The translations under genes were made by a program, and so were the position numbers. DNA of 60,137 nucleotides, counting the filler, from Hausera hauseri (Eukaryota), in assembly GCA_046269625.1 (NCBI GenBank). It is 12 parts of 12 records of this genome, joined end to end, with 100 filler letters (N's around TTAATTAATTAA, not from the genome) between each part and the next. Parts side by side here need not be neighbours in the genome. Positions count along the whole stretch, not along the records: positions 48,221 to 54,067 come from JBJURY010180084.1; positions 54,168 to 60,137 come from JBJURY010160200.1; 10 more parts are not named here. One strand, 5' to 3'. Shown here in pieces: positions 17,284 through 58,275 of this stretch. The notes beneath the pieces were generated by a model. The model ran no database searches and was not told the DNA's origin. It saw nothing but the letters and a program-made list of their open reading frames with translations. Each line of letters starts with the position of its first letter. The first letter of the stretch is position 1.

Positions 17284-17379
17284 ATGAATGATGTAAAGAT
17301 TATCTTAGCAGACAAAAATGCCTTTGCACGGAGACCTGTTACAGCAAACAGTGCAGGCTACGATGTGTTTTCCAATGTC
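17284..17379 (+). CDS. dut: dUTPase N-terminus (truncated by the contig end)
   Basis: MNDVKIILADKNAFARRPVTANSAGYDVFS matches dUTPase motif 1 (P.R.T..SAGYDL). Confidence 0.75.
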
Positions 17380-17738: not shown

Positions 17739-18950
17739 TCACATCTTACTACTTTTGTGAGTCTTTCGATAAATATCAAGATTCAAATTTTGAGTATCCA
17801 ACATAAACAGATTCAGTGGAACGGAAATCCGTAGTAGAGCAACTTCGTCCTTCAAATCATGATGTGAATCTATTTTCTTTCTCGTCAATGATAAATTTTC
17901 TTCTAACATGTTCAACACCTTTTTATCTTTTGTATAATCTGTATTTTTCTTTTTCAACGCCAAAAGTCCATGACGTTCTTTCAGAAATGCTCTAACTTCT
18001 AGATCAGCTTTATTGTTGAGAAGATTCCCATATTTTTTGTAAATGTTTAAGTAAAGTTTGGTCCGACAGTGTTATCTTTAAATACTTGCATAGCCTTCTC
18101 CAAGTAGATGGTGACCAATATTTCGTTAAATAGTACAGTTCGTAAAAATAATCGTTGTCCTCGCATTTCCGGAAACAGGTCAACTTCAATCCTAGGAATG
18201 TGCTCGGCTGCTGAAATAAGATACTGGTAGCAGCGCGTAAAAAGGTCTCTCAAATCTTTAAAACTCGCATTATAAATGATTTTCGGTTCGGCAATTTTCA
18301 ACTCAACAACGAGCATTAGAGTTCTTGGATACTGTAGTTCGTCAAAAGAAGTTTCGAAGTTATTTCCAGTTTCATGTTTACAAATGAAATTGGTAAAGCC
18401 TCTTAATGACTCGTCAACCATACTTCGTAATTGTGTTGACATTAGAGCAGCTACTGTTGCAGAAAATATCTTTGCTGAATCTGCACTGTCATTGGCTGTC
18501 TTCAGCAAAATATGTGACCACAAATGTGGGTATATATGAAAGCTCGAACACATTTGGGAATCCAGCTGGTTTTAATTTCAAAATCGTTTGGTTGCATAGG
18601 CAGTCCAATTTCGATCAACTCGTCAATGTTGATGAATCATTTGTCCATAAGCTCTTCATGTTAAATATTTTGCAGTTCAACTTTCATTGGATTGCAAATA
18701 AACAAATTCTTCAAACAAAAGGCTTTTGACAACGAATATGACTCAGACCATGGCACTGGAGCGCGAGTAATTCGTGTCGGATACGGAATAGGCAAGGCTT
18801 TAATATTTAATCGATTTCGTTCTTCACAGTCAAGCAAAATGTAGTCAACGATAGACTGTTACAATGAATGCTGATCAATATTCCAAACGTTTTGTGGAGT
18901 TGAGCATGACTCTCATGCAAGGTTTCGGTCAAATGAGGTTGACTCAATTT
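17739..18950 (-). pseudogene. Axonemal inner-arm dynein heavy chain (DNAH3/7/12-like) N-terminal fragment, intronless and frameshifted
   Basis: SIVDYILLDCEERNRLNI...TRAPVPWSESY; VAALMSTQLRSMVDESL; IPRIEVDLFP; GP..YLNIYKKY..LL. Confidence 0.8.
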
Positions 18951-19860
18951 GTCTAATTTGATCTTTCCAAAATCCCCTTATTCATTATCAATGGCCATAA
19001 CGGTTGTTATACGAGTTCCAATATCGATGGTCTCTTTCACAACACCAGAATAATTGTTCTGATTAAACTTTAAAATTATGCCATTAACATCGATAACCTT
19101 GACAATGATCTTCTGAGAAGTACAAAGAGATGGTGTATCACATGCTTGCAATATCATATTATATTCTTTTATCATCTCGAATCCAATGGTTTCTTCAACT
19201 TTAAGTTCAATTTTGTATTGGAAAATATCAATTCAGATGTGGAATCATGAGTAATATCCAAATTGTATTACTGGATTCCAAATTTTGCACTGTCCAAATT
19301 GGTGGCTTGTTCTAATTCAACAGTAAAATTGACCTTTTCATTTTCTGCTATATGGGAAATATTATCCAATTTCTTGAATTGTGAATAGCTGTCATTAACA
19401 TTTTCAATGATAATTTTAACGTTCAACAATGCCTCATCAACTAAAATGAACAAAGATATGCTACATGGAAGATTTGTACCAGATACTCTTGGGCATAAAA
19501 TTTCTTTGTCTAACACTGTTGTGGTAGTAATAACACCGGAATACTAATTAATGGAAAACAGGTCTTTCCGATTGAAATCGAATTTGTTGAAAATGAAAAT
19601 TGATGTCAGCTTTATATCGATAGATTTCAATTCATTGTACGAGAATACCCACTCGAGTTGACACCGGTCCATTTTCAAATAAAGTAAATGTAGTTTCAGA
19701 CAGATTGCTATAATCGATAATCTAGCCAGAATACAATCATTTTCCATGTCACAATTTGACCTTTATTTGAGCCGGTAATCAGGTTTTTCTATCAGCTGTG
19801 TAATCTTTCACGGTAATCAGTGATTGAGGATGTTAATCAAGTAATTCCCATTTCTGACAC
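18950..19860 (-). pseudogene. Protocadherin-like N-terminal cadherin repeats, degenerate and fused to the dynein fragment
   Basis: GVITTTTVLDKEILCP; VKIIIENVND; IAENE...ATNLDS; VKVIDVN...FNQNNYSGVVKE...TVMAIDNE. Confidence 0.8.
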
Positions 19861-20399
19861 CATTGTAATAACCAGATAAAGATATAAAGTAATAAGCTTT
19901 ATTTTTAAACCAATATTAAATCCATTTTCAATTTTTTATAAACATGTAATATACATTTGATATATACATGTTACAGATTTCTTACAAGTTTTTGTACCAT
20001 CGGAAATTTGGCAAGATGCTGCTGTTCACATTTGCAATCAAGAATCACTTGCTTTGTGTCTTTGACATTTGTGCAGTGCCCACTGTGAACATCTTGAAAT
20101 TTTCTATCCATACTGACACGGAATGGAACATTATTCCGCACTTCTTCAATTTGCCCTTTTTTCTATGCAGAAGAATCTCAGGAGTTGTCAAAATTATCAA
20201 CTTTTTCCGATTGCTAATTTTTAGACTTATTATGTTTTCTTGAACTGATGAATATCTGCCAAATGTTTATTCATAAGAAAAGAAATATTAACGTCGTGAA
20301 TGATAATGGGACAAATTATTTTAACTACATACTGGAAATCGCATTTTAAAAGAATATTGTTCGGAAAAAATTGAATCTACAAAATTCTTCTGCAGTTTG

Positions 20400-20895
20400 A
20401 TTGTGGTGGCGCCCGAATCCGCGTCACTACAAGAAATGTTTCTTGAGTGTTATGCGTCGTTTGCGTGAAGCTATTTGCCTCAAGAGGGCGGAATTGTGGC
20501 GAAACATTCTTGGTTTTTGCATCACGATAATGCACCATCTCACACTACATTGGTTCTTCGTGACTTTTATGCTAAAATCTCGATCCATATCATTCAACAA
20601 CAACCCTATTCTCCTGATTTAACATCGGGTTACTTTTGGTTATTCCAAAACTTAAGAGACCGCTAAGGGGACACCGTTTTGACTTGATTGAGGAGATACA
20701 AACCGAATCGAAGAAGGCACTGAAGGTCATTCCGGAATTTGAATTTAGCAAGTATTTCGAGTATTGGTAAAAACGTTGGCCTAAGTGTATTGTGTCGGAC
20801 GGGGATTACTTTGAAGGCGACGAAATAGATTTAGAAGAATAAATAAAGATTTAAAAAATTATAACCAGTCTTATTCATATTTGATCACAGTAGTA
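20400..20895 (+). mobile_element. Mariner (DD34D) transposon 3' fragment
   Basis: WFLHHDNAPSHT...PYSPDL...FWLF; KRWPKCIVSDGDYFEGD; the TIR-like end ATTTGATCACAGTAG is followed by TA. Confidence 0.9.
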
Positions 20896-21059
20896 AATAT
20901 AGCTTAGCAATGAGCTCATATAAGCACCAACACAGGCAATGCGGACTTTACATACACAGTGCTGCTGGAGTTTTATGATCCAGCAGCCCATGTACATCTG
21001 CGTCATTTTCTAACCCTCACGATTACCAACACGATTTAAAAATAGTGTCATTCTTACTA

Positions 21060-22812
21060 CACGATGAATACCAAGCGCAATCAGTGACGACTGGTGTAAA
21101 GTTGAAAATTCTTCAAGCTGTCCACGATAACAGCAAAAAAGTAGCAATTCTCAAGAGGAAACTGGGTGACATTGCTGAAGGGTTTGGAATAAAGTATCAT
21201 AAAAAGGCGAGAAGAGATTGAGTCCAGAGCTTTTTCTGGATGTTTTTCCTCTACGGCAAAAAGATTTCGTGCGGCAGACAAGTTTACTGAAGTTGACAAC
21301 GCTCTCCTCAAGATGTGCTGCACTTCCAAAATAGCCAATGACGAATTGCCGAAGACAAATGCCCAGTCATTTCTATCTCATCTTCGAAGCAGTGAGACAT
21401 CAGAGAGAGATTTGACAATCTTCATGTTGTGGATCCAAAGATGGAAACATCACCACAACATCAAATCGAAACTGATATATGGTGAAAGTGGTGCTGTTTC
21501 TGAAGAAGCCTCACACCACTGGTTTTCAAGTGTCATTCCCAGTCTGCTGCAATGCTTCTCCCCCAGACATATTCAATGGATATGAGACGGGACTATTCTG
21601 GAAATTGACTTCTCAGCGCACCCTTGACTTTGTCGGCGAGAAATATCATGGAGAAAAGCATTCCAAAGGGCGGATCTCTGTCTTCGTAGCTGCCAGCATG
21701 ATAGGCGAGAAGTTACCACTACTGGTCATCGGTAAATCTGGGCGTCCCAGAGCGTTTCGCAATCAGAGCGTGTCTTTGGAGTACGTAAGCAACGAGAAGG
21801 CATGGATGACTTCTGGTATTTTTGAAGAGCACATTCGAAAGATTGATGGCCAAATGAGTGCTGCTAACAGAATGATCCTTCTCATTGTTAACATCTGCCC
21901 TGCCCATCCAAAACTGAATTCGTTTCGATCTGTTACCCTTGTGTTTCTTCCTGCGAACACCACTTCCAAGACGCAACCAATGCAGTGTGGAATTATCTGG
22001 TTACTGAAAATTCATTATCGTAAGCAGTTGATGAATGAGCTGCTCATTGCTCATGATGCCAAGAAACCCTTCCAACCAACCTTATGCGGGCACTATAATG
22101 ACTGAAAATTGCATGGAATCACGTTCAAGTTGAAACAATCGTCACGTGTTTCCGTTCTGCTGGCTTTCGTGATGATACCATTTCTTTTCCCACAACTTCC
22201 TCCGATGGAACGGTTTCCTCCGACGATTCTGTTAGCGTGGGTAACAATTTTGAGCGCCTGTGGCTGCGTTCTCTTTGTCAAATACAGTGAGCACAGTGCT
22301 GTTCACATCGATAAACGATGACATTTTCACCGTAGAAACTCCGGGTGAAGCTGCCATCATCGATTCTCTGATGCCACCAACTGGTGAGACCGTCATGAGT
22401 GATTATTCTGACGATAACTGTACCTGTGGTGATAATGATGAAAATATTCCGTCACAAGCTGAGACTCACGCTATATCAAATTCGCCTCTATCTTTTGAAG
22501 CATTATTCTTCTGTGGATGACTTTTATCATTTAGACAATTTGCAATTTTCTGTTACTAACGCAACATTTAATAGTAAAACACAAACAAATCTTGATAAAT
22601 TTTTAACATGCGACTGATTACCTTTCTCTGCTGAATGCTGTTTTGTGTCTGTTGTCCTCTAAACTCTACAAAGAAAATGTACTGATTTTCACTTCAGTTA
22701 CTATTAAGATTGGATTGTGTGAGTCGATTATAGAGGTGAGAACAAGTCAGTACAACTGCGTAAAGTGTGCAATTTTCAAAAAATCGGTTATAAAATCCTT
22801 TTATAATGAATT
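21060..22812 (+). mobile_element. Pogo/Tigger (CENP-B-like DDE_1) transposon, degenerate
   Basis: WIQRWKHHHNIK...GES; DIFNGYETGLFWK; GEKLPLLVIGKS.RPRAF; NEKAWMTSGIF; ILLIVNICPAHP; FLPANTTSKTQPM. Confidence 0.9.
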
Positions 22813-27524: not shown

Positions 27525-30500
27525 TGACATCACGTGACCAATCATATGATATAACGTGACAAATCACTTGACATCACGTGATTAATCATATGATATAACG
27601 CCAAAAATTACTTGATATCACGTCACCAATCATATAGTATAACGTGAAAAATTACTTGACATCACGTGACCAATCATGTGATATAACGTGACAATTTACT
27701 TGACATCACGTGAACAATGATAAGACATAACGGGAAAAACCAGTTGATATCACGTCACCAATCATATGGTATAACTTGACAAATCATTTGACATCACGTG
27801 ACCTATCATATGACATAACGTGACAAATCACTTAACATAACGTCCCCATTCATATGGTTAAACGTGACAAGTCACTTGACTTCACGTGACCAATCATATA
27901 ATATAACGTTACAAATCACTTGATATCACGTGACTAATCAAATGAGATAACGTGAAAAATTACTTCACATCACGTCATCAATCATATAGTATGAGGTGAC
28001 AAATTACTTGACATCACGTGAACAATCACATGACATAACGTGACAAATAATTGATATCACGTGACCAATCATAAGATATAACGGGACAAATCACTTTGTA
28101 ACCCGTCACCAATTATATGGTATAACGTGACAAATCACTTGACATCACGTGACCAATCATATGGTATAATGTGACAAATTACTTGATATAACATCACCAA
28201 TCATAGGGTATAACGTGTTAAAATCACTTGACATCACGTTACCAATCATAAGACATAACGGGACAAAATACTTGATATCACGTCACCAATCATATGGTAT
28301 AAGGTGACAAATCACTTGACTTCACGTAACCAATCATATGGTTTATCGTGTCTAACGACTTGACATCACGTGACTAATCGTATGATATAACTTGATAAAT
28401 TTCTTTACGTCACGTCCCCAATCATATGGTACAACGTGAAAAATCACTTAATATCACGTGACCACTCATATGACATAACTGGACAAATCACTTGATATCA
28501 CGTCACCAATCATATGTTATAACGTGACAAATCATTTGGCGTCACGTGTCCAATCATATGACATAACGTGACAAATCACTTGGCATCACGTGACCAATCA
28601 TAAGACGTAACGGGACGAATCACTTGGTATCACGCCCCCAATTATATGGTATAATGTGACATATCAATTGACACCACTTGACCAATCATATGATATAACG
28701 CCACAAATCACTTCATATCACGTTACCAATTATAAGATAAAAAGTGACAAACCTTTTAATATCACGTCACAAATCGTATGGTATAACGTGAGAAATCACT
28801 TGACATTAAGGGACCAATCATATGATATAACGTGACAAATCACTCGAAATCACGTGTCTAATATTATGATATGACGTTACAAATCACTTGATATCACGTG
28901 ACCAATCATAAGATATAATGGGACAAATCACTTGATATCACGTCACCCATCATATGGTATAACGTGACAAATCACTTGATATCACGTGAACAATGGTAAG
29001 ACATAACGGGACAAATCACTTGATATCACGTGTCCAATCATATGACATAACTTGACAAATCTCTTGATATCACGTGAACAATCATAAGACATAACGGGAC
29101 AAATCACTTGACATCACGTGACCAATCATATGACATAACGTGACAAATAAGTTGATATCACGTGAACAATCATAAGATATAACGTGACAAATCACTTGAT
29201 ATCATGAGATCAATCATAAGACATAACGGGACAAATCATTTGACATCACGTGACCAATTATATGACATAAGATGACAAATTACTTGACATCACGTGGCCA
29301 ATCATATGACATAACGCGACAAATCACTTGATATCACGCGACCAATCATATGACGTGACGTGACAAATTACTTGATATAACATCACCAATCATAGGGTAT
29401 AACGCGACAAATCACTTGACATCATGTGACCAATCATATGACATAACGCCACAAATCATTTCATATCACGTTACCAATTATAAGATATAATGTGACAAAC
29501 CTTTTGATATCACGTCACAAATCATATGGTATAACGTGACAAATCACTTGACATCAAGGGACCAATCATATCATATAACGTGACAAATCAGTTGACATGA
29601 AGTGACTAATCATATGATATAACGTGAAAAATTACTTGACATCACGTCCTCAATCATATGGTATAACGAGACAAATCACTTGTCATCACGTGACCAATCG
29701 TATGACATAACGGAACAAATCACTTGACATCACGTGTCTAATGTTATGATATGACGTTACAATACACTTGACATCACGTGAACAATCATATGACATAACG
29801 TGACAAATCACTTGATATCACGTGATTAATCATAAGTTATAACGTGACAAATCACTTGAAATCACGTGAACAATATATATGACATAACGTGACAAATCAC
29901 TTGATATCACGTGATCAATCATAAGATATAACGGGACAAATCACTTGACATCACGGGACCAATCATATGACATAACGTTACAAATAAGTTGATATCACGT
30001 GACCAATCATAAGATATAACGGGACAAATCACTTGATATCACGTCACCAATCATATGTCATAACGTGGCAAATCATTTGGCATCACGTGACCAATCATAT
30101 GTCAAAACGTGACAAATCACTTAATATCACGTGGCCAATCATAAGACATAACAGGACGAATCAATTTGTATCACACCCCCATTTATATGATATAAAGTGA
30201 CAAATCAATTGACACCACTTGACCAATCATATTTCATAACGTGACAAATATCTTGATATCACGCGACAAATCATATGATATGACGTGACAAATCACTTTA
30301 CATCACGTGATTAATAATATGATATAACGCAAATAATTACTTGATATCACGTCACAAATCATATAGTATAACGTGACAAATCACTTGACATCACGTGTCT
30401 AATCATATGATATGACGTTACAAATCATTTGATATCACGTCACCAATTATATGGTATAATGTGACAAATCACTTGATATCACGTGAACAATGGTAAGACA

Positions 30501-32598
30501 CAACGGGACAAATCACTTGATATCACGTGTCCAATCATAAGACATAAGGGGAAAAATCACTTGATATCACGTCAGCAATCATAGGTTATAACGTGACAAA
30601 TCACATGATTTAACGTCCCCAATAATATGGTATAACGCGACAAGTCACTTGACATCACGTGACCAATCATATCATATAAAGCGACAAATCACTTGACATC
30701 ATGTCCCCAATCATATGGTATAACGTGAAAAATCAATTGACATCACGTGACCAATCATATGACATAATGTGACAATTCACTTGATATCACGTGACCAATC
30801 ATATGACATAACGTGACAACTCACTTGATATCACGTTAACAATCATAAGACATGATGGGACAAATCATTTGATATCACGTGACCAATCATACGACATAAC
30901 GTGACAAATCAGTTGATATCACGCGACCAATCATACGACATAACGTGACAAATAAATTGATATCACGTCACAAATCATATGGCATAACGTGACAAATCAC
31001 TTTATATCACGTGACCAAATATAAGATATATCGGGACAAAGCAATTGATATCACGTGACCAATCATAAGATATAACTGGACAAATTACTTGATATCAAGT
31101 GACCAAGCGTAAAACGTAACGGGAAAAATCACTTGATATCACGTCACCAATCATATGGTATAACGTGATATCACTTGATATCATGTGACCAATCATGTGA
31201 CATAACGTGACATATCACTTGATATCACGTGACCAATCATAAGACATAACGGGACAAATCACTTGATATCACGTCACCAATCATATGGTATAACGTGACA
31301 AATCAATTGACACCACTTGACCAATCTTATGACACAACGTGACAAATATCTTGATATCACGCGACAAATCATATGATATGACGTGACAAATCACTTTACA
31401 TCACGTGATTAATCATATGATATAACGCAAATAATTACTTGATATCACGTCATCAATCATGTGGCATAAAGTGACAAATCACTTGATATCACGTGAACAA
31501 TCATAAGACGTAATGGGACAAATCATTTGACATCACGTGACCAATCATATGACATAACGTGACAAACAAGATGATATCACGTGACCAATCATAAGATATA
31601 ACGTGACAAATCTCTTGATATCACGTGAACAATCATAAGACATAACGGGACAAATCAAATGATATCACGCGACCAATCATATGACGTGACGTGACAAATT
31701 ACTTGATATAACATCACCAATCATATGGTATAATGAGACAAGTCACTTGACATCACTTGACCAATCATATCATATAACGTGACAAATCACTTGACATGAC
31801 GTGACTAATCAAATGATTTAACGTGAAAAATTACTTGATATCACGTCCTCAATCATATGGTATAACGTGACAAATTACTTGACATCACGTGACCAATAAT
31901 ATGACATAACGTGAAAAATCACTAGATATCACGTGACCAATCATAAGATATAATGGGACAAATCACTTGACATCACGTGACAAATCATATAACATAACGT
32001 GACAAATAAGTTGATATCACGTGACCAATCATAAGATATAACGTGACAAATCACTTGATATCACGTGAACAATCACATGACATAATATGACAAATAAGTT
32101 GATATCACGTGACCAATCATAAGACATAACGCGACAAATCAATTGATATCACGCGACCAATCATATGACGTGACGTGACAAATTACTTGATATAACATCA
32201 CCATTCATATTGTATAACGTGACAAATCATTTGACATCACGTGACCAATAATGTGACGTAACGTGACAAATCACTTGACATCACGTGACCAATCATATGA
32301 CATGACGTGAAAAATTAGTTCATATCACGTGACCAAATATAAGACATAACGGGACAAATCAATTGATATCACGTGACCAATCATAAGACATAACGGGACA
32401 AATTAATTGATATCAAGTGACCAATCATAAAACGTAACGGGAAAAATCACTTGACTTCACGTCGCCAATCATATGGCATAACGTGAAAAATTACTTTATA
32501 TCACGTGACCAAATATAAGATATAACGGGACAAATCAATTGATATCACGTGACCAATCATAAGACATAACGGGACAAATTAATTGATATCAAGTGACC
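27525..32598. repeat. Satellite DNA, 44-bp monomer (CACTTGATATCACGTGACCAAT + CATATGACATAACGTGACAAAT), about 115 copies, filling the whole contig
   Basis: Uninterrupted head-to-tail array with no unique spacers. The monomer is a diverged dimer of 22-bp units. Confidence 0.95.
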
Positions 32599-44158: not shown

Positions 44159-45060
44159 AAACCGATAAGAAGGCGGTTTCCAACTCGTGCATACCGTGCT
44201 GCAGGCGTAAATAATGTATGGCAAATGGATCTGATAGAAATGATTCCGTACGCCAGCATCAACGATGGGTATCGGTACGTGCTGACATGTATTGATGTGT
44301 CTAATCGTTTGTCACATGCAATTGACGTGAAATCTAAATCCGGTAAAGAGATTACCGACGCTGTTCAGACACTGATACAACAGCAACAGTCGAAGCATTT
44401 ACAAACGGACTTGAGTAAGGAATTCTACAACGCCCACATTGCAGCGGTCTTGAAACGGTTCGGCGTAAACCACTACTCGATGTTTTCCCAATACAAGCCG
44501 GCACTAGTTGAACGATTTAATCGATTACTGCGCGGTCACCTAAACAAATTCTTTATGAAGCAATACAACAAACGCTGGGTAGATGTACTGCCGGATATTA
44601 TTCATGCATACAATCATTCGACACATCGTGGTATCAGTGGATTACGGCCGGTTGACATAATCGATGATTTGGAAATGTGGCGTTATTAAAACCAAACCCG
44701 ACGAGGATGACAGGCAATTAAACGTCGCCCAAAATATAAAATCGGTGATTATGTACGTATTTCAAAGCTGAGTACGACACCACTCATTAAGAATTTCAAT
44801 CAGAACTGGAGCGATGAAGTTTTCCGAATTTCAGCAATCAACACAATGCAAAGTCCGGTTATGTACGTTTTAGAAGATGAAAATGGTGACGAAATACGTG
44901 GAAAATTTTACGAATAAGAACTGCAAGTACAACCGGAAAAACCCGATGTGTATCGTATTCAGGAAATTCTAAGTTCACATGGCAAAGGTTCGAATAAACA
45001 ACATCTGGTCCAATGGTACTGATACACTACACCGAGTTGGATTTTTTCATCGCCGATTGA
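44159..45060 (+). pseudogene. Maverick rve integrase with a C-terminal chromodomain-like region
   Basis: KPIRRRFPTR...WQMDLIEM...YVLTCIDV...LQTDLSKEFYN...LVERFNR...YNHSTH, then KIGDYVRISK...QNWSDEVF...GKFYE. Premature stops are present. Confidence 0.92.
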
Positions 45061-46101
45061 GTGATAGCATTTATTTGGTACTTGATAGTAACAGATTATT
45101 ATCACAACACGACAACAATGACAATATCGCTAAACAGTTTACCATGCACTTGGACCAACCGATCGATTTACGCCACAGAGCCTGGGACATTTTCACCAAT
45201 GACAATACGTCAGAACAGTGGTATTTACTTTACCCGACAAGAAACTAACCATATTTCAAGTCGCTTGTGGACAATACTACACAATAACCGATATATTTTT
45301 CGCAATTATTCGCGAGAAAAATTTTCGGTATATGCTTATTTTTCAAACTACCGTATGAAACTAATGCATTGATATCCCATGGAAATGCAGTTTAAATCTA
45401 TAGCTGATACTGAGGCATAGGGTTTTCAATCAGTCAATGTACACTCAAAACGTCTACGGTTAGGTGGACGTGTTATAATTAGTGAAAAATTGGACCTTTC
45501 ATCCGATGCGGAATCAGATATTATAGTAAATCAGACTAAGTCAGAATGAGTCTTCCACTCATGTATTATACCGCACGATTTACTAGTGGAAACGGAACTG
45601 GAATTGTTTAAATATGTCAAGAAAACGGCCGCATTAGTCGCAAAGACATGTGAAATAAATGCAGATGGTCATATTTCGATTACACTACATGACAATGTTA
45701 CATATTTTGCCTTTGATGAATTATTGGCTCGGAATCTGGGTTTTTCACAACGTGAATTCTATCAAAACATTGTTGGACGATCTATTGTTGCCAAATACAA
45801 ACCACAACTCTATGGAGCATTTCACCGAATCAACATTTTAACGGACTTAACCGAATCCGTACTCGTTGGTGGAGAACGTAAACAACTGCTGGCTTCTATC
45901 GAACTGGATTCTGACACGTACAAAACATCGGGTGAAACTGTTCGCGTTATTATGTTCAGACGCATGTACTTATCATTGTCTCATAATACTGTGTACAGTA
46001 TTTCCGTGTATATGCTTGATGAATTTTGGGAACGAATTAAATTTCTGTTTGGGTCAACGACACATTTGACGTTACATTTTCGACGTCGTCAACATCGATA
46101 A
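45057..46101 (+). pseudogene. Maverick minor capsid (penton-like) protein 1
   Basis: N-terminal IYLVLDSN...DN...FTMHLDQPIDL...WD and C-terminal INILTDLTESVLVGGERKQLLASI...ISVYMLDE..ERIKF..G.T.HLTLHFRR. Confidence 0.8.
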
Positions 46102-46146
46102 TAAACAAACAGCGTCATCATCACCATTATCATCATCGTCGAGATC

Positions 46147-47222
46147 ATGAGTATTTACATGGTGTTGCCAAGCAACAGATGTCCGACGACTGATCCGAAC
46201 AACTCCGCCAGTGAATACGTTATAGACTGGAACAATCCTTTGGATTTATCTGGACAATGGGAGGTTGCACTGACGAAATTTAACTTTCCCTACGCACCGG
46301 TGACATTGAAATGTAGTATGAAAATAACTTACAACAAGACTGTTACTGAAACCAAACACATTCTTGTCCTATGACACTTACTAATAATAAAATAACAGTT
46401 GGAGAATCGGCCATTTGCACGACTGAAGCAAATTACGGTTCACGCGGCAAAATCGGTGTTTTTATTTTAGATCAAAACTTACATTTTATTGCAGATTTTG
46501 AATTTACTGTTACCTTTAAGTCCTCTGAGATGGTGCAGAAATTTGGATTCAAAAATACAGAGTACAAAGGTAACCATATTAAAAGTGAATATGTAGTTTG
46601 TCCAAGATTAAATCCCGTATATTACCAGGCTATGGTGAAATTTACATATACAACAGAAAGGGTATCAGCGTCATACGTATCGATTGGAGCCAATGTCCAT
46701 TGAGAATCTGTAGCACATCTCTGTGAACACTTTTCTTCAAATGAAAAGTAGAAGGAGATATTTAAAGTTTTTGAGTCAGATGCAAATGGGTACATTAAAT
46801 TTGAACTGGCTAAGGATATTGTCGACATTTCATTGGACTAAGCATTGGCCATGGTATTGGGTTTTGAAAAACAGCGGTTTGAGGCATCGACAACGGCGGC
46901 ACATGTTGCAACATTTAAAGCCAAACTGAAAACTGGTCTAAGTCAAATGTACATTTGCGTGAACGTCACCGAACCTATTTTGGTAGGTGGAGTAAGTGCA
47001 CCGCTACTCCATGTAATTTATCCGGAAAGCAGCAAGTATACTTCTGGCCACAATGTCACTGTCAAGCTCGATAATCCAATGTACCTAACTGTGGCATCTA
47101 CATCTATAAACAATGATGAAGTGAATATCCGATATAACGCAGGCTTCCTTATTAAATTGATGTACGGTACCACAACCAGTCTAACTTTTCATTTCCGTCA
47201 AATCCAACAACAACATCATTGA
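46147..47222 (+). pseudogene. Maverick minor capsid (penton-like) protein 2
   Basis: MSIYMVLPSN...PNNSASEY...PLDLSGQWEVAL and MYICVNVTEPILVGGVSAPLLHVI...NPMYLTV...TTSLTFHFRQ. Confidence 0.85.
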
Positions 47223-47588
47223 TTCCGAAATTATTTCCATATACAGTAAACCCCAGCAGGGCGGTGAACTGCCGTATTTTGTTGGTAAACAGTATGGCTC
47301 TGGATAGTTGCGTACATTGGCACGTTTAGCATTTCAGGTGTTGAAGTGTATTGGAGCCGTGGCAGCCAAAACAGCACAGGACGTACTGTATGAAAACAAA
47401 TTGATTTTACCATCATTAATGGAACAGGCCTTGTAAGAAATAAAAAGCGCTACACCGGAGGTCATTGAATCAGTCAAAAACAATTTGCTGGCAGTGGCTT
47501 GAGAAAACTCCGTAGAGAATCATCGAGCTCATCAACTATAAACAAACGTCGTCGTCGTACGATTTTCGATTGATTGCTTGACAGACAA

Positions 47589-48120
47589 ATGGCATCTGCA
47601 TAATCTGAATTGTGTATATTTGACAAAGGTGCACCAGAAATTGTTATTAACAATGCGGCATTTGAAAAAATCTATCCCGTTAATTCGGTTTCAACGGATG
47701 ATAACATTGACATTCAATTTAACATGATGGCATCGGACAATGAATACCTGGATTTGAACGATACGCTACTCTATGTAAAAGTCATTGTTAAAAATGATGC
47801 ATCAACGGTTCTCACGGCAACAGACACTGTCACACCGGCCAATTACTTTTTCCTCACACTGTTCAAGGAGGCTTCACTGACTCTGAACAGTGTCAAAATC
47901 GAAGGCAACATCAGTCTGTACAGTATCAAGGCACTCATTTAAACGGCTCTGAATTACAGACAAGAAAACTACTCATTTGACGAAAACCATCGGATATGAC
48001 GCCACAGCGACAAACCGTCAGGCATGGGTGGCAGAATCAAAAACCCTTACCATGTGTGGACCACTGTACTTTGACTTTTTCGATCAGCCGAAATACCTAC
48101 TGCCCGGTGTTAAAGCCATG
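47589..48120 (+). pseudogene. Maverick major capsid protein (double jelly-roll, PY/hexon) N-terminus
   Basis: *SELCIFD...IYPVNSV...IQF...EYLDLNDTLLYVK...PANYFFLTLF...GPLYFDFFDQPKYLLPGV. Confidence 0.88.
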
Positions 48121-50089
48121 NNNNNNNNNNNNNNNNNNNNNNNNNNNNNNNNNNNNNNNNNNNNTTAATTAATTAANNNNNNNNNNNNNNNNNNNNNNNN
48201 NNNNNNNNNNNNNNNNNNNNCTAATATGAAAATTGAGGCCACATATGTCAATGTTGATGGTGAAGAGTCCAAAAGGGCCTTTAAGACCGGAAATAGGCCC
48301 ATTTTTGAAGCTACAGATATACTACAATGGCTGCATGATGAGCATGCAAAGTTGATTACTGAAGCTGATGAGAACCAGAGTAAGAAGAGCGGATGGGCTC
48401 TGGCAACTATCAAGAACCTACGTGTGCATGTTCACAGGTACTCTCCCATGCGAGGCAGTTCATATATACAGCTGCCAGAATGGATTAGGCAGAAAAACGC
48501 TTGCATTAATGTCCATAATAATGACACCAAGTGTTTCATGTATGCCATTCTATCAAAACTCGTGTCGGATCAAAAACATGCTTCACGAATTTGGCTATAT
48601 AATGATCTGAAACACAATTATGACTTCCAATGCATCACATTCCCTCCATCCTTAGATGAAATAAAGAAGTTCGGACAACTCAACAACATGTCAATCAACA
48701 TCTTGGGATTGGATGAGAAGGATAAATTCTATCCCCTGCAAATATATGATAATGAATTGGAAGATCATAGGGATCTGCTCCTACTAGACGATGGAGAAAA
48801 GAAACATTATATTCAGATCAAGAATTTTGAGCGTCTAGACAGATACCAAATTACGAATCATCATGAACAAATAGAAATATGTAAACGATGCTTTTCCAAT
48901 TTCAGTGGTGATACAGCAGTGGACAAGCTTGCATAGAACAAAATTTACTAACAACAATTACTGTGTAAGACCAGAATTTTCCAAGGAGGACTATATTGAA
49001 TTCAAAAAGTTCGAGAAGAAGATCAGGGTCCTAATAGTTATCTATTGCGACTTTGAAGCTATTCTCCGGCCAATTCACGGCTGCGCTCCCAGCTCTCAAC
49101 ATAACATCACAAAGTCATACCAATGTCACGAACTCTCATCGTATTGCATGTATACCAAAGGACTAGACAGTGAACCATTTGTATTTAGTGGTCCAGGCGC
49201 AGCAGAACATTTCTTGATACGACTTGAAAATATGGCTCATGAGCTTGAAAACATGCTTCAGCAGCATAAGGATACAATGAGAATGTCGTGGAAATAAGCT
49301 GAAGAATGGCACAAGGCAACAACTTGTTACTTTTGCTCCAAATCATTCACCAAGGAAAATCATAAAGTTAAGGATCATTGCAATTTTACAGGCACATATC
49401 GGGGCTCAGCATGCAACAATTGCAACTTACGCTGCGAGACATGCACATATGTGCCTGTAGTGTTTCATAATATCAGTGGCTATAATTCCCACTTCATTGT
49501 TCGAGAACTGGGCAACATTGAAGGAAACATCGATGTCATTCCTGATAGTGAGGAAAAGTACATCACTTTCACCAAGCATGTGGACTACATCAGGCTTCGC
49601 TTCATAGATAGCTTCCGCTTTATGAGCTCGTCATATCGAGTACGCGAAAGGTTTCCTGGAAATTGTTCATAAATTCCTCGTTTACATTTAAGAGAGTTTT
49701 TGAGAGGAATGTCTTAACCAAATTTGTAATATTCTCAACGTGAAACACGACGATTTTTGTATTAGAGTAAATATTGGGACGCATGTTCTGTATCGCTGTA
49801 AGAAATGGATGCTTAAAATCAGGTTTCAGACGACAGACTTTCCAAATAAAACATGGAGATACACTTTGTTTCAAAAAATCTTCTTTTGAAATGTTAATTA
49901 AAACTTCGCCAACTTCCGCGATAAAATGGTATCCAATAAAGAGATAGACAACAATTCAAAACTTCGATCAACCTGTTCATCCAGTGAATTGACATTAAAG
50001 TGACCAAAAGCAAACTTGTCTATATTTTGGATTCCAACATGAAGATCATAATTTAAAATTCAAAATTCAAAAAGCAAATGTAATTGTGT

Positions 50090-50580
50090 TTATTTTTTTA
50101 TACATTTAAACAACAGTTTTTGAATCGTGATACGAATAAACGAAGTCGGAGTACTGATTAGAGTCACGATTGTTACTAAAACAACCCAATACCAATGAAA
50201 CATGTATATTTGTTCATTGAGCATATTAACCGGTAGAACACATTGTGCCGTAATTCCGTTTCTAACACCCGAATGATCCAGTCTGGCATAACGGTAACCG
50301 ACTCGAGGGAAGATCATGGTTGTTTGCCAATCTTGCCCATTAAGAGTGTTTTGAGCAACTTCAATACCAAAAAAATCGAGTTAGTCCCAAAGAAGTTTTT
50401 GCATTAATATCGCTTGGTCGAATGAGTTAATGAGATAGTTGATTTTTAACACGAAATAGCTAAATATCAACCAATTCCCGAGACGTTTACTGACCACAAG
50501 AAAGTTACAAGTTTTATATAATCCTATGCAATAGTTAGCCATTCTTCCTATTCGATTGTCCCATTTTTGCCTCGCTTTTT
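50090..50580 (-). pseudogene. inx: Innexin internal fragment (intronless)
   Basis: SKRLGNWLIFSYFVLKINYLINS...GQDWQTTMIFPRVGY...AQCVLPVNMLNEQIYMFHWYW. Confidence 0.9.
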
Positions 50581-50599
50581 CACTTGAATGTATAACCTG

Positions 50600-51455
50600 A
50601 TTGGCACTGGTAACTAAATGCTAAATATCGGTTCCGGTTAAATTGTAACAAAACATTTGCCACAGAACACGTGAAATTTAGAACATTATGCATTGGAGAC
50701 TGAATACGAAAGGAACCCATTGATAATACAATAAAGAAACCTGGTGGACCATTACGTTTCTGTGAACGAGTATGCATCGTTCGATCTGGCACATTTGGAT
50801 TTGATGAAAGTGTGGCATACTAGTATTTGGTCGACGATTTGGTAACGTTGTCTCTGACTGACTAGAATTTTGTCGGCCGCTTCTTATTGTGTCCCGTTGA
50901 TTTGAATTTGGGCGATAAGCGAGTCTATCCAATAAACTAGAATTTTGACGATTTCTGGTTATTCTTACAGGCAAATCTACATCGTCCCTTCTGTGATTTG
51001 ACAGTTTATCAAAGGATTATTCACTTAAAATGGCGACAATGCAAACATACCTTCCAAATTTTCGATATCTTCACATCAAACTGTTTTTATGCACTTTCCA
51101 TCTATTTTATCAAATATTTTGTAATTCTTGACCTTAGACCGATCCATAGGACATGAATTCTTTTCGTTCGTCCATAATTCGATGCAAATGACACAAAATT
51201 CCTGTGTACAACAAGCCAATCTGGCTACTTTACCATCAATATTAGAAAGACAAATACAACATTCTTTAGGCTTGCCGGCAACCATGTGTAAGACACGAAT
51301 ATTTGCAGGTCGTCCAATAAAATGACTTGGTTTATGAATTGTTCCACGGAAATTTTAGAGGCGGAACATCGGGAGATTTTTGAATACCTTGAATGATAAG
51401 GCGTTTACTAAGTTTCACCTCTTCTGATAGAATTATTAAATAGTGCAGCATACAT
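50600..51455 (-). pseudogene. RING-finger protein fragment (PHRF1/SCAF11-like RING plus R/S/N-rich region)
   Basis: CCICLSNIDGKVARLACCTQEFCVICIELWTNEKNSCPMDR. The zinc-ligand His position is substituted and downstream stops are present. Confidence 0.7.
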
Positions 51456-51575
51456 CCTCTTAGAGCAACAAAGTATTGAGTATTACACCCAAATTTTTTA
51501 TGTTGAATTGAACTATATTATCACGTTTGCAGTGCACTGTTGAATTTAGTGAGATATATCACATGTACAAAACTT

Positions 51576-51685
51576 TATCGAGGCAGAAGATCGGGACCCG
51601 CCTATAGGCTCGACGCAGCGGCAACGGAGGTCCGGCCGTGTCCAAGCAAATGTGCCATAGGGCGCCGGCCGCCGCGGGCATCACA
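51576..51685. mobile_element. Short GC-rich element, possibly a solo LTR/TRIM terminus (TA...CA)
   Basis: 110 bp of sharply higher GC ending in CATCACA and followed by CCTCA, which mirrors CGTCA at 49629-49633. Confidence 0.4.
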
Positions 51686-54294
51686 CCTCACTGGATAGTT
51701 TAGTGAAGAACCTCCCCGCATAAGAACTCAAGGAATGAGAAGCGGTTCTTCCCCACTGCATTTGACCTAGTCAAAAGGACAGGCGTGTTTACTTGTGACT
51801 ACATAACCTCATGGGAAACACTGGATAAGACCTCATTGCCGGACAAGAAGGACTTTTACAGTATCCTCTCTGATTGCAATATCAATGATTCTGACTACCA
51901 GCATGCCCAGAATGTCTGGAATGCATTCCAATGCCGAACAATAGGGGAATACAGTGACATATATTCCAAGACGGACGTGCTGCAGCTGACAGATATCTTT
52001 GAGAGTTTCAGGATGTCACAATGAAGAGCCATGCATTGGATCCGGCTCATTTCGTTACGGTTCCAGGGATGAATTGGGCAGCAATGCTGCGCTATACTGG
52101 TATTAAGCTGCAGATCACTAAGGATTACGACATGATCCTTATGATCGAGTGAGGCATTCGATGTGGAATATGCCAGGCCATTCATGGGTATAGCGAGGCC
52201 AACAACAAGCATATGGCCCAGGATGATCCATCCAAGGAATCGTCATAATTATCATAAATGGATGCCATCAACTTGTATGGATATGCAATGAGCGACCCAT
52301 TGCTGTATGATAACTTCGAATGGATCGAGAATCCTGAAAACATCCCTATATTGGACCTGGATCCCACTGGAGATATGGGCTACATACTGGAGGTGGATAT
52401 GGAATATCTTGCTTTCATCCATGCAAGGCATCAACAGCTGCCTTTCCGCCCTGAAAGCAGGCATCCGACACATGAAAAACATAAGACGCTGCTCTGCCAT
52501 CTGGGTAATAGGGAGAGATATGTAGTTCACTACATCAACCTTCAGCAGGCAGGTAGACATAGACTTCGTATTACCAAGATCTATAGAGCCCTCCAGTTCA
52601 GCCAGTCCATGTGGCTGCAGCCCTACATAGATTTCAATACCAAGCTGTGGACAAATACCAAGAACGACTTTGAGAAAGACCAGTTCATGCTTTACAACTC
52701 GGTCTTTGGCAAGACCATGTAGAATATCATGAACAGGATCAACATCGAACTTGTGTGTGACTGGAAGCGAGAAAAAAACTTATTTCCAAGCCTAACTTCC
52801 ACAGCAGCATCATATATGCTGAGCATTTGGTCAGCATCCATATGCTGAAAACAGCATTGATATTCAACAAGACCATATGGCAATCCTCGACCTGTCAAAG
52901 ACCCTAATATATCATTTCCACTACGGCATCATGGTCCCCAAATTCAAGTCCATTCAGTTGATGAATATAGATACTTGTAGTTTCATCTATCATATCCGTA
53001 CAGAGAACATTTATGAGGACTTTTCCCAGTTGGTAGAGCATATGGATACTACGGACTATCCGAAGGATCATCCCAACTATTCAATTGCCAACAAAAACGT
53101 CCTTGGGAAATTCAAAGACGATGTGAATGGGGCAACAATATCGAGATTTTTGGCTCTCAGATATAAAATGTATGCTCTACACGTATGTGGCCAAATAAAG
53201 AAGCAGGCAAAAGGGGTTCAAAGGGCTCTATTGGTCAAGAAGATCAGTTTTCAAGACTATGACAGTACTGCAGGAGCAGACTCACATTATATCGGAAATG
53301 AAAAGGATCCAATATAGGGATCATAACATACAAACTGTTACCTTACAGAAGGAAAGCCTAGATGGGATGGATGACAAGAGGCAGATCCTCAGCGATGGAA
53401 TTCAGACACTATCGCACGGGCATGTGACATTATTGTAACTATGTACATATTGTTATTCTTTGTTTAATAAATGTTGTATAGAAATATGGTGTTGTCTTCT
53501 TGATCAAGTAATGTGGGATAAGGCCAAGTAAAACTAAGTAACTACTATATAAGATAAGACCAACTAATTTCATAACACATTTACTTAGTAACAATATAAC
53601 TTTGACATAATGCTAAACACTTTTTATATGCACGATGTGAACCATGTTCACAATAAATACATGTAACGTTCTTTGGTATAGCTACCAATTTGTTACATTC
53701 ATATGCACATATTTGCAATTCTGAAAATATGCTATTAAATATCTTCTTCTTTCGCCCATCAGCATGGTATTTGACACAGAACATTGATTCATTTATATCA
53801 CACATTCCAAATATCTCGCATAAGGCAATCTCTGCAAAACTGGGTATTATATTCTTCCAAAGTAAGTTTGTGATGATGATTTGTCAAATAAGCATTTGTT
53901 GCTTAAGCCTTGTTTGTGAAACAATGTAGTGTAGACCTAAAAATAGCATAAGTCACATGTACTATAGTAAAATTCACTTACCCAAATACATAGTGTAGTG
54001 AATGAAACATTATTCACTAGCATTATACGTAGGCCTTTATGATATATTCATTATTATTATCCACAAANNNNNNNNNNNNNNNNNNNNNNNNNNNNNNNNN
54101 NNNNNNNNNNNTTAATTAATTAANNNNNNNNNNNNNNNNNNNNNNNNNNNNNNNNNNNNNNNNNNNNATCCTAAAAGGCACTTAGTTAGTTTTACTTGGC
54201 CTTATCCTAGCTCCCACACTACTTGATCAAGAAGACAACACAATATTTCTACACATTTATTAAACAAAAGAATAACAAAGAATAACAATAATAT

Positions 54295-57200
54295 TTACAA
54301 TTCCACATGTCCATGAGGTTGTATGTGGATTCCATCGCTCAGGATCTGCCTCTTGTCGTCCATCCAATCTAGGCTTTTCTTATACAGAGTTACTGCTTGG
54401 ATGTTATAATCCCTAGATAGGATCCTTTTCATTTTCGATATAATATGAGTCTGCTTCTGCAGAACTGTCACATAGTCTTAAAAACTGATCTTCTTGACCA
54501 ATGTAGCCTTTCGAACCCCTTTTGCCCGCTTCTTTATTTGGCCACATACGTCTAGGGCATACGTTTTAGATCTGAGAGCTACAAATCTCGATATTATTGC
54601 TCCATTCACTTCGTCTTTGAATTTCCCAAGGTCATTCCTATTGGCAATTGAATAGTTGGGATGATTCTTTGGATAGTCCGAGGTATCCATGTGTTGAGCC
54701 AACTGGGCAAAATCCTCATAAATGTCCTATGTATGAATCCGATAGATGAAACTATCAGTATCCATATACATTAGCTGCAGGGACTTGAACTTGTGGACTA
54801 TGATGTCGTAGTAAAAAGGATACATCAGGGTCTTTGACAGGTCGAGAATTGCCATACCCACATATATGGGCTTGTTGAGTACCAATGCCGTTTTCAGAAT
54901 GTGGATGCCTACCAAGTTCTCAGCATATATGGTGCTGCTGTGGAAGTTAGGTTTGGCAATAAGATTCTTTGCCCGCTTCTAATCACATACTAGCTCAATG
55001 TTGATCCTGTTGCGGATATTTTCCCTGGTCTTGCCAAAGACCGAGTTGATGTAAAGCTTGAACTGGTCCTTCTCAAAATTGTTCTTGGCATTAGTCCGCA
55101 ACTTCGTATTGAGATTTATGTAGGGCTGCAGCCATATGGACTGGCTAAACTGGAGGGCTAATGGATCTTGGTAATGCGAAGTCCATGCCTAACTGCCTCC
55201 TGGGGATTGATGTAGTAAACTACATACTTCTCCTTATTACACAGATGACAGAGCAGCTTTCTCTGCTTTCTATGGGGCGGAGGTCTGCTCTCATGGAGGA
55301 AAAGCAGCTGTTGATGCCTTGCGTAAATGGAAGCCGGATATTCCATATCAATCTCCAGTATGTATCCCGTATCTCCTGTGGGATCCAGATCCAGGATAGG
55401 GATGTTCTCAGGATTTTCGACTCATTTGAAGTTATCATACGGCAATGGGGCGCTGATTGCATATCCATACAAGTTGTTGGCATCCAGGTATGATATATAC
55501 ATGAGGATTTCTTGGATGAGTCGTATTCGGCCATATACTTGTTATTGGCCTAGCTGTACCGGTGAATGGCATGGCATATTTCGCTTTTATTGCCTCTCTT
55601 GATAATAAGGATCATGTCGTAATCCTTAATAATCGGCAGCCTTATGCCGGTATATATCAGCATTGCTGCCCAGCTAATCCCCGGAACCGTAAAGAAATGA
55701 GCCGGATCCAGTGCATGACTCTTAATTGTGACATCCGTGAAACTCTCAAAGACATCTGTGAGCAGCAGCACGTATGTCTTGAGGTATATGTCGCCGTATT
55801 TCCCTAATGTTCGGCATTGAAATGCATGCCAGATATTCTGGACATGCTGGTTGTCAGCATCACTGATATCGCAATCAGTGAGGATACTGTAAAAGTCCTT
55901 CTTGTTCGGCAATGAGGTCTCATTCAGTGTTTCCCATGAAGTTATATAGTCATAGGGAAACGTGCCTTTCCTCTTGACGAGGTCAAAGGTAGTGGAGAAG
56001 AATCGCTTTGAACCCTTCAGTTATTCTGCAGGGACGTTCTTCACTAAACTGTCCAGTGAAGACGACATGAAACGAAAGCTAGCCATGAAGCGAAGTCGGA
56101 TTTTGAGCACATGCTTGGTGAAAGTGATGTATTTTTCCTCACTGTTATGGATCACATCTATATTACCATTAATATTGCATAATTCTCGGACTATGAAATG
56201 GAAATCATAGCCACTAAGATTATGGAACACTACATGCACATAAGTACATGTTTTGCAGTGAAAATTGCAGTTGTTTTATGCTGCTGCACGATATGCACCT
56301 GCAAAATGGCAGTGATCCTTGACTTTATGATTTTCCTTGGCGAAGGTCTTGTCGCACAAGTAACATGTTGTTGCCTTTTGCCATTCTTCAGCTTGTTTCC
56401 ACGACATGCTGATTGTATTCTTATGCTGCTGAAGCATGTTTCCAAGCCTATAAGCCATATCTTCAAGTAGTTTCATGAAATGTGCGCTACAGCTTGACCT
56501 CTAATTAGATATGGTTCACTATCCAGTCCTTTGGCATACATGCAATATGATGAGAGTTTATGATATTGGTATGCCGTTACGCTGCTATGTTGAGAACTGG
56601 GAGTGCAGCTGTGAACTAGCCGGAGAATAGCTTCAAAGTCGCAATAGTCGATAATTAGGACCTTGAGCTTCTTCTCGAACTCCTTGAATTCAGTATAATC
56701 CTCCTTGTGCAATTCTGGCCTTAGACAATAATTGTTTCTGCAATACATCTTGTGCTCCGCAAGCCTGTCCATTGCTGCATCACCACTGAAATGGGAAAAG
56801 CATTGTTTACATATCTCTGTTTGTCCATGATGAATCGTAATTTGGGATCTGACTAGACGCTCAAAATTCTTGATCCAAACATATTGTTTTTTTTCTCCAT
56901 TATCTAGTAGGAACAGGTCCCTATAATCTTCCAATTCAGTATCATATATCTGCAGGGGATAGAATTTATCTTCCTCATCCAATCCAAAGATGTTGATGGA
57001 TATATTGTTGATTCGACTGAACTTCTTAATTTCATCTAAGGATGGAGGGAATGTAATACATTGGAAGTCATAGTTGTGCTGCACATCATTATATTGCCAA
57101 ACTTGTGAGACATTATGTTGATCAGGCACGAGTTTTGATAGAATGGCATACATGAAATACATGCTGTCATTATTATGGACATTGACATGCTTTTTTATTA

Positions 57201-58275
57201 GCGATCCAATCAGGGAGTTGAATATATGAACTACCCCGCATGGGGGAGAATCTGTGCACATACACACTCAATCTCTTGATAGTTGCCAGAGTTCATCCGC
57301 TCTTCTTACTCTGGCTCTCATCGGCTTCACGGATCAGCTTTGCATGCTCTTCATGTAGCCATTCTACTATATTGGTGGCTTCAAAAATGGGTCTATTTCT
57401 GGCCTTGAAGGCACTTTTGGACTCTTTACAATCAACATTGGCATGTGGCCTCAAGTTTCATATTTGTCTTAATGGCCTTGTGCTCAGCTATGTTGCCCTA
57501 AAGAATCCGCTTTGTTTCTTCCTCTGTGTACTCTAGGAACTCCTTGATGGTTGTTTGACCAGCTGCATCAATGACATATTTGCGGCATTTTTTCTTTAAT
57601 GCTGCAGCATCAACTGGCTGCTGTCTTTGACTGTTTGATGGAGCCGGTACGCCTGATGCGTCCGATGCGCGTTTTAGTCCTGCATCTATGTGTACTGCAG
57701 GCTGTGGTACTACAGGCCGTGGTACTGCAGGTTGTGCAATTGGCTTATGTTCATTAAAGATGATCTTCTTTGACTTTTATGTGAAGTCAGTCAAATGATG
57801 TTTGTGATCATCATAAAATTGTATGTAATCGCCATCACATAGAGATTCACATCCTGTGCGGATATAATAAATTATCCTGTTGAATTTGTGTCCATAATAG
57901 CTCCTCATGGTATTGTGGCAATTCTGAGGGATGTGTGTTACACATATGCAATACATATGTAAACTGCATTTTTAATTTTCGTTTGGCACAAACGTCGTTA
58001 TTGGCATATTGTTACTGAATATTTGTTTTTTCGACTTGGTGAAGTAAATCAAGTGCTGTCTATGGACATTATAAAAATCTTTATAATTGATTTGTCACAC
58101 TGCCTCACATGTAGGGCATATATAATACTGAACCCTGTTATACATATAGCTAAAGTACTTCTTCATAACACTGTGGCAATTTTCCAGCTCGTGGATTTGA
58201 GCCAAACATTCGCTGTAAAGTTTTCACATCTAAAATCAACCAATTATTTGAGGAGAACAATCAAAAAACTCACCA
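54295..58275 (-). pseudogene. polB: Protein-primed DNA polymerase B (Maverick), copy 2, uninterrupted but decayed
   Basis: Collinear with copy 1: YCDFEA, VKDHCHFAGAYRAAA, VVFHNLSGYDFHFI, FRFMSSSLDSLVKN, KPIYVGMAILDLSKTLMY, YMDTDSFIY and GKFKDE. The 5' limit is approximate. Confidence 0.93.

What the first reader, a model, noticed from the sequence alone, without database searches (positions are those of the whole stretch)
49629..51690. Discrete insertion in pPolB carries a concatemer of three unrelated, co-oriented, intronless host-gene fragments
Seen: pPolB copy 2 reads ...FMSSSLDSLVKN without interruption, whereas copy 1 is split at exactly this point. The insert (49634-51685) is flanked by CGTCA/CCTCA (5-bp TSD-like, one mismatch). 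Inside it, a 1.94-kb block is flanked by a perfect 7-bp direct repeat TATCGAG (49634-49640 and 51576-51582). That block holds, all on the minus strand and nearly abutting, a RING-protein fragment, an innexin fragment and a third unidentified coding fragment (about 49641-50070). It has no TIRs, no poly(A) tail and no transposase. Known: LTR and non-LTR reverse transcriptases can switch templates and make chimeric retrocopies. Inference: multi-mRNA chimeric cDNAs are being integrated as single units. Because the empty-site sequence is visible in a paralog, this is the clearest evidence in the window for a gene-fragment concatenation and mobilisation system.
Basis: partly seen in the sequence, partly recalled or inferred. 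Interest (0 to 1): 0.85.

Follow-up and report, generated by a model that had tools for sequence, protein, structure and literature searches.

The report
Retrotransposon remnant carrying fused gene pieces
A 2-kb piece of DNA that splits a virus-like transposon gene holds broken, same-direction fragments of several genes, one of flatworm type, and is likely a repeated retrotransposon remnant whose cargo was likely stitched together from messenger RNAs; similar fused fragments elsewhere in the assembly hint that this may be common in this genome.

Summary
The insertion is real. A 2,052-bp insert (49634-51685) splits a Polinton-type pPolB. Its flanks are CGTCA/CCTCA. A paralog and 12 public contigs show the empty site. 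On the minus strand it holds a 110-bp GC-rich module, a probable fourth coding piece, a RING piece, a flatworm-type innexin piece (residues ~103-336, three stops) and an unidentified coding-like piece.

The insert is a diverged low-copy family, not a one-off. The inner TATCGAG sits on the module boundary, so it is more likely a switch scar than a target duplication. Contigs 1, 2 and 5 carry similar concatemers, two beside Gypsy gag or integrase.

Best reading (0.55): a non-autonomous LTR-retrotransposon derivative whose cargo was joined by reverse-transcriptase template switching, a mechanism already published for other animals. Against it: no second LTR, no PBS, no PPT. mRNA origin is inferred, because parent genes could not be retrieved, and the outer junctions were not shown in reads. 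The cargo is decayed. Verdict: a new variant of a known kind, of moderate interest.

The parts
48221..49633 (+). Polinton-type pPolB, left part, decayed (target of the insertion)
   Evidence: Pfam DNA_pol_B_2 E 2e-5 and Endonuclease_7; 83% to copy 2
49629..49633 (+). Left target-site duplication CGTCA
   Evidence: empty-site contigs join 49630 to 51688
49634..49640 (+). Terminal 7-mer TATCGAG, same as the inner end of the GC module; the third piece's frame stays open through it
49641..50059 (-). Third piece: coding-like, one frameshift near 49900, unidentified; more repeated than the rest of the cargo
   Evidence: codon model best frame 0.076 and 0.238; no homologue; summed depth 444 against 50-173
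50060..50112 (-). AT-rich spacer, GT..AA with AATAAA: intron remnant or UTR, undecided
   Evidence: sequence
50093..50737 (-). Innexin fragment, residues ~103-336 of flatworm orthologues, cut at both ends, 3 stops, two short gaps
   Evidence: Pfam; 44-49% to trematodes, 65% to P0007; tree
50738..51075 (-). Linker, low-complexity, coding status ambiguous
   Evidence: codon model undecided
51076..51354 (-). RING-finger fragment with in-frame ATG near 51285; parent gene unidentified
   Evidence: Pfam zf-RING_2 E 1e-6; PDB RING hits; no full-length homologue
51354..51374 (+). Partial copy (17 of 21) of the GC module's inner end
   Evidence: 0 of 300 shuffles reach 17; one contig joins 51370 to 51597, side 28 letters
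51330..51517 (-). Probable fourth coding piece, unidentified; may be the 5' part of the RING gene
   Evidence: codon model; PDB hit not significant per domain
51576..51685 (-). 110-bp GC-rich module (66% GC), reads TGTGATG...CTCGATA; candidate short LTR
   Evidence: no Rfam, tRNA or stable fold
51686..51690 (+). Right target-site duplication CCTCA (one mismatch)
51688..53541 (+). pPolB, right part, decayed
   Evidence: 83% to copy 2
54182..57464 (-). pPolB copy 2 on a separate contig, showing the empty site near 56060

Best explanation
The insert is a decayed element, present in several diverged copies, and likely a non-autonomous LTR-retrotransposon derivative whose cargo was likely joined from host mRNAs by reverse-transcriptase template switching before an LTR integrase likely placed the whole unit in a Polinton pPolB. 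Steps: (1) co-packaged mRNAs are copied in succession, giving same-sense pieces cut at both ends, without poly(A) (inferred); (2) the chimera keeps element ends and is copied in trans into several diverged copies (repetition shown, route inferred); (3) one copy integrates with a 5-bp duplication into one of very many pPolB copies, probably just because they are abundant (insertion shown); (4) it decays (shown). The missing second LTR, PBS and PPT are best explained if this copy is a solo LTR-like remnant with the cargo inside the repeat (inferred). It has no evident function.
For: - A 5-bp duplication with a TG../..CA end on one side. The other end is one transition from TG/CA; TACA and TGTA ends exist in plant Copia elements (PMC9804982 passages).
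- Pieces are co-oriented, cut at both ends and lack poly(A), as in LTR-mediated retrocopies, which can combine two or more genes and re-transpose (PMC5131818 passages).
- Short matches to the module end at two cargo boundaries: 7 of 7 and 17 of 21.
- Low-copy family: interior summed depth 50-173 against 4-25 for single contigs; up to 8 contigs differ at one site.
- Same kind of cargo abuts Gypsy gag (DUF7041) in contig 1 and integrase in contig 2, with the same dinucleotide profile as the insert.
- In contig 1 the ZnT piece aligns to human ZnT7 over 273 residues without an intron-sized gap.
Against: - No second LTR: end-to-end direct score 51 against a shuffled mean of 52.
- No PBS-like or PPT-like motif in the insert.
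- Integrase needs 15-20 bp at each end (PMC5131818), and one end has only 7 bp matching the module.
- The Gypsy genes in contigs 1 and 2 look CsRn1-like (recalled), a lineage with 4-bp duplications (PMC2582038), and share no sequence with the insert.
- No exon junction was tested. A 645-bp intron-free stretch arises by chance 1-20% of the time for mean exons of 150-400 bp.
- The 52-nt GT..AA spacer could be an intron.
- The outer junctions are not among the 8 records shown.
Confidence: 0.55

Rival explanations
1. DNA-level capture: a pack-type DNA transposon or Helitron with eroded ends gathered genomic pieces.
For: Such elements capture several fragments (PMC6431247, PMC8277862 passages). The GT..AA spacer may be an intron. 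A 3-bp TCA duplication is also readable. Contig 5 cargo has no Gypsy gene beside it.
Against: No TIR; no TC/CTRR ends or hairpin (fold z +1.2); a target duplication is present; all pieces share one strand; long intron-free coding stretches in contig 1.
Confidence: 0.17
2. A non-LTR or Penelope-type chimera: target-primed reverse transcription hopped across mRNAs and ended on a short GC-rich RNA at the 5' end, like U6-L1 chimeras (recalled).
For: Same-sense pieces, a ~110-nt module at the sense 5' end, a single target duplication, no second LTR.
Against: No poly(A) or simple-repeat tail; no Rfam, tRNA or ribozyme match; the TG/CA end and the multi-copy diverged family are not expected.
Confidence: 0.13
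3. Two nested events: a 110-bp solo LTR or SINE inserted first, then a 1.94-kb chimeric retrocopy inserted into it with a 7-bp target duplication.
For: Perfect TATCGAG on both sides of the cargo, exactly at the composition step.
Against: It needs the second insertion to hit exactly the first 7 bases of the module. A contig 7.5% diverged has the same inner junction (30 letters on the short side, just under the tool's 31-letter rule).
Confidence: 0.1
4. Assembly or amplification chimera, possibly between two organisms in the sample.
For: Short-contig assembly; contig 3 looks teleost-like (recalled); outer junctions not seen in reads; X1 may be the source run and holds only half the words.
Against: Both pPolB flanks resume in register with a duplication; insert and pPolB contigs have similar single-contig depth (4-25 and 7-12); no vertebrate-like CpG decay in the pPolB pair (0.089 against 0.108).
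Confidence: 0.05

Closest known systems
LTR-mediated chimeric retrocopies in animals (Tan et al. 2016, PMC5131818; passages read)
   Same: Partial mRNA pieces cut at both ends, no poly(A), two or more parent genes, short similarity at junctions, further rounds of transposition.
   Different: There the cargo replaces internal ORFs between two LTRs. Here there is one 110-bp module plus 7 bp, three to four or more pieces, and flatworm-type cargo (the word flatworm does not occur in that paper's main text).
Pack-TIRs, Pack-MULEs and gene-capturing Helitrons (PMC8277862, PMC6431247; passages read)
   Same: Non-autonomous, about 2 kb, multi-copy, carrying gene fragments.
   Different: No TIRs, no Helitron ends, cargo all on one strand and apparently spliced.
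Burro/GYPSM1 giant Gypsy elements of planarians (PMC6431247; passages read)
   Same: Flatworm LTR elements carrying host-like domains.
   Different: Burro domains sit in an intact polyprotein; this cargo is broken and non-coding, and no Burro similarity was tested.
CsRn1-lineage Gypsy elements (PMC2582038; passages read)
   Same: Gag and integrase beside cargo in contigs 1 and 2 resemble this lineage (recalled).
   Different: They have 4-bp duplications, TGT..ACA ends and a tRNA-Trp PBS; the insert has a 5-bp duplication, one TA end and no PBS.

Membership tests
LTR retrotransposon derivative (TRIM-like or solo LTR) | 4-6-bp target duplication | tested here: met
   CGTCA/CCTCA, one mismatch; empty sites seen
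LTR retrotransposon derivative (TRIM-like or solo LTR) | TG...CA termini | tested here: inconclusive
   One end canonical, the other TA; such ends known in plants
LTR retrotransposon derivative (TRIM-like or solo LTR) | Two LTRs flanking an internal region | tested here: not met
   Only 7 bp repeated; not required of a solo LTR
LTR retrotransposon derivative (TRIM-like or solo LTR) | PBS and PPT | tested here: not met
   Motif scans found none in the insert; a solo LTR would lack them
LTR retrotransposon derivative (TRIM-like or solo LTR) | Paired copies around gag-pol elsewhere in the genome | not testable with these tools
   No genome held
LTR-mediated chimeric retrocopy | Loss of parental introns | not testable with these tools
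LTR-mediated chimeric retrocopy | 5' and 3' truncation, no poly(A) | tested here: met
   Innexin residues ~103-336 of ~450-500
LTR-mediated chimeric retrocopy | Microsimilarity at switch points | tested here: inconclusive
   Matches to the module end at two boundaries; parent sequences unknown
Pack-TIR / Pack-MULE | Terminal inverted repeats | tested here: not met
   Score 14 against shuffled mean 17.5
Helitron | 5'-TC, 3'-CTRR with hairpin, no duplication (recalled) | tested here: not met
   Ends and duplication; fold
Non-LTR retrocopy / small-RNA chimera | 3' poly(A) or repeat tail; known small RNA at the 5' end | tested here: not met
Viral innexin (vinnexin) segment | Innexin related to viral or insect innexins | tested here: not met
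   Groups with flatworm innexins; none in viral contigs

The most novel reading that the evidence does not exclude
In a large flatworm genome, LTR retrotransposons repeatedly take host mRNA pieces into the LTR itself. Reverse transcriptase leaves the element a few bases after priming, hops across mRNAs and re-enters at the LTR end. That gives enlarged cargo-laden LTRs, each capture leaving a partial copy of the LTR end, which are scattered as solo LTRs. With 4 of 12 contigs carrying such concatemers, a sizeable part of the genome would be a shuffled archive of its own transcriptome.
Probability: 0.2. Interest if true: 0.72.

Novelty: new variant of a known kind. Interest (0 to 1): 0.42.

Why it matters
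If confirmed, it extends LTR-mediated exon shuffling to flatworms, with longer multi-gene chains and perhaps at genome scale. That would bear on genome inflation, on false gene-family expansions in annotation, and on small RNAs made against host genes. It would also give a natural record of template switching. As a single decayed insert it is only one example of a known process.

Tried and rejected
- Whole genome: none held.
- No RNA holder listed.
- Third piece: nothing in the homologue search, in 1.84 billion representatives (only the downstream frame plus read-through was sent), the Atlas, PDB or PHROGs. A weak plus-strand Maelstrom hit (E 5e-4, below cut-off) was rejected: that frame has stops, PDB gives no support and the codon model prefers the minus strand.
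- Fourth piece: the SPMIP5 hit comes from a duplicated target, E about 6 per domain; Atlas blank.
- RING parent not found.
- The module is not a tRNA, an Rfam RNA or a stable hairpin. It has no other copy in the window and no exact 26-mer match in JGI metagenomes.
- Viral origin of the innexin: no relative.
- A PBS-like motif in contig 1 was dropped because it lies inside a coding-like frame.
- A vertebrate host for the pPolB is not supported by CpG decay; a cruder count had hinted at it.
- Earlier scan notes: nothing.
- Paper searches for gene-fragment concatemers in flatworm genomes listed no such report; the library lacks most subscription papers, and no supplements were read.
Full report
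Setting. The window is not continuous DNA. It is 12 contigs of 4-6 kb joined by N44-TTAATTAATTAA-N44 spacers. The insert lies in contig 11 (48221-54067) and pPolB copy 2 in contig 12. No whole genome is held. One public run, X1, holds half of the sampled words; it may be the source sample, so it is not independent support.

Observation. The pPolB flanks align to copy 2 at 83% on both sides and resume in register. The 2,052-bp insert is bounded by CGTCA and CCTCA. In X1, 8 of 15 listed joint rows (79 in all; 12 contigs) skip this interval, so the empty site is common among paralogs. The contigs at the best-aligned joint carry the left form of the duplication. A 3-bp TCA reading is possible, but the 5-bp reading also gives a CA end, which favours it. 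There is no TIR (score 14, shuffled mean 17.5) and no long direct repeat between the ends (51 against 52).

Anatomy, read on the minus strand. First comes a 110-bp module of 66% GC against 32-37% in the cargo, starting TGTGATG and ending CTCGATA. It matches no tRNA or Rfam family and folds no better than shuffles. Then a probable coding piece at about 51330-51517, then a RING finger (Pfam E 1e-6), an ambiguous linker, an innexin piece, a 52-nt AT-rich spacer, and the third piece. The third piece's frame stays open into the terminal CTCGATA.

Identity of the pieces. The innexin covers residues about 103-336 of trematode orthologues (44-49%) and is 65% identical to the unnamed P0007. In a tree it pairs with P0007 (91/98) among flatworm sequences, within a 100/100 group that also holds unnamed rows. 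It has three stops and two short gaps. The third piece has no homologue in any library tried. A codon model trained on cargo-like pieces from the window chose the right frame in 7 of 8 leave-one-out tests. It scores both frames of the third piece, and the fourth piece, best of six on the minus strand. That the host is a flatworm is inferred from the innexin alone.

The 7-bp repeat. TATCGAG occurs somewhere in 26 of 300 shuffled inserts, so it is not rare. Its inner copy lies on the GC change point (51579), where chance expectation within 10 bases is about 0.001. A second, partial copy of the module end (17 of 21) lies at 51354-51374; 0 of 300 shuffles reach that score, though longer windows are weaker (2 and 9 of 300). 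One X1 contig joins 51370 to 51597, a form without the fourth piece, with only 28 letters on the short side, so it is a weak hint.

Copy number. Summed contig depth is 43,000-600,000 over pPolB, 50-173 over most of the insert and 444 over part of the third piece, against 4-25 for single listed contigs. Up to 8 contigs differ from the window at one site. One 226-nt contig with 17 differences crosses the inner junction, with 30 letters on the short side. Summed depth is not a copy number, but the insert is clearly a diverged low-copy family. Only 8 of about 46,000 records were shown, none across the outer junctions.

Context. Three other contigs carry co-oriented, abutting gene pieces. Contig 1 has an unknown piece, a ZnT5/7-type transporter and a PAP-associated (TUT-like) piece, running into Gypsy gag. 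Its ZnT part aligns to human ZnT7 over 273 residues without an intron-sized gap. Contig 2 has Gypsy integrase, a UBA piece on the opposite strand, the same unknown gene (71% at DNA level), an LRR and a furry-like piece. Contig 5 has a weak cadherin match and an ungapped 157-residue dynein heavy-chain piece. The insert's dinucleotide profile matches contigs 1 and 2, but it shares no sequence with them.

Mechanism. Shown: a discrete unit, a short duplication, several diverged copies, truncated same-sense pieces, decay. Inferred: mRNA origin, template switching and LTR integration. Tan et al. 2016 (PMC5131818, passages) describe this process in flies, mosquito, fish, chicken and mammals, including chimeras of two or more genes that re-transpose, but with both LTRs retained. 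Here only one module and 7 bp remain, with no PBS or PPT. A solo LTR with cargo inside it would explain that. In that model reverse transcriptase leaves the element 7 bases after priming, at a shared CTCGATA, crosses several mRNAs and re-enters at the LTR end. The model accounts for the duplicated 7-mer, the sense orientation and the partial repeat at 51354, but it is untested, and I give it 0.2. LTR-mediated capture in any form gets 0.55.

Results against. CsRn1-like elements make 4-bp duplications (PMC2582038). One end is TA; TACA and TGTA ends are reported for plant Copia elements (PMC9804982). A 645-bp intron-free stretch is only weak evidence (1-20% by chance). The spacer may be an intron.

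Rivals. DNA-level capture (0.17) lacks TIRs or Helitron ends. A non-LTR chimera (0.13) lacks a tail. Nested insertion (0.10) needs an exact hit on the module end. Artefact (0.05) does not explain in-register flanks with a duplication. Contig 3 looks teleost-like from recall, so a mixed sample is possible. However, pPolB and insert contigs have similar single-contig depth, and the pPolB pair shows no CpG decay excess.

Novelty. Six paper searches (listings only) found no report of such concatemers in flatworms; the library is incomplete and no supplements were read. The closest flatworm case is the Burro elements (PMC6431247, passages), whose host-like domains are in intact polyproteins. Verdict: real, a variant of known LTR-mediated retroposition, non-functional as it stands. 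Its interest lies in the apparent abundance of such chains and in the possible cargo-in-LTR design. Interest 0.42.

Noticed in passing
window 270-4016 (contig 1, minus): Unknown saposin-like piece (label recalled), long intron-free ZnT5/7 piece, TUT-like PAP-associated piece with a zinc knuckle, running into Gypsy gag.
   Followed up: partly
window 4117-8909 (contig 2): Gypsy integrase followed by a FAF1-like UBA piece on the opposite strand, the same unknown gene as contig 1 (71%), an LRR and a furry-like piece; a possible LTR end near 7264.
   Followed up: partly
window 17480-22812 (contig 5): Cadherin-like and axonemal dynein pieces on the minus strand, a G-rich tract followed by TG at about 17713-17735, a nested mariner-like piece (recalled) and a DDE_1 transposase.
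   Followed up: partly
window 9010-12974 (contig 3): hAT transposase and repeat tails that look teleost-like (recalled), low CpG: possible contaminant or transferred element.
   Followed up: no
window 13075-17379 and 44159-48120 (contigs 4, 10): A second Polinton family (integrase, TBP-like gene, probable dUTPase start and capsid genes, the last two recalled), CpG-rich, unlike the CpG-poor pPolB family.
   Followed up: no
window 48221-54067: The pPolB family is extremely abundant in run X1 (summed depth 10^4-10^5 against about 10 per contig), suggesting thousands of Polinton copies.
   Followed up: partly
window 27525-32598 (contig 7): 44-bp satellite, 115 copies, 78% matches.
   Followed up: no
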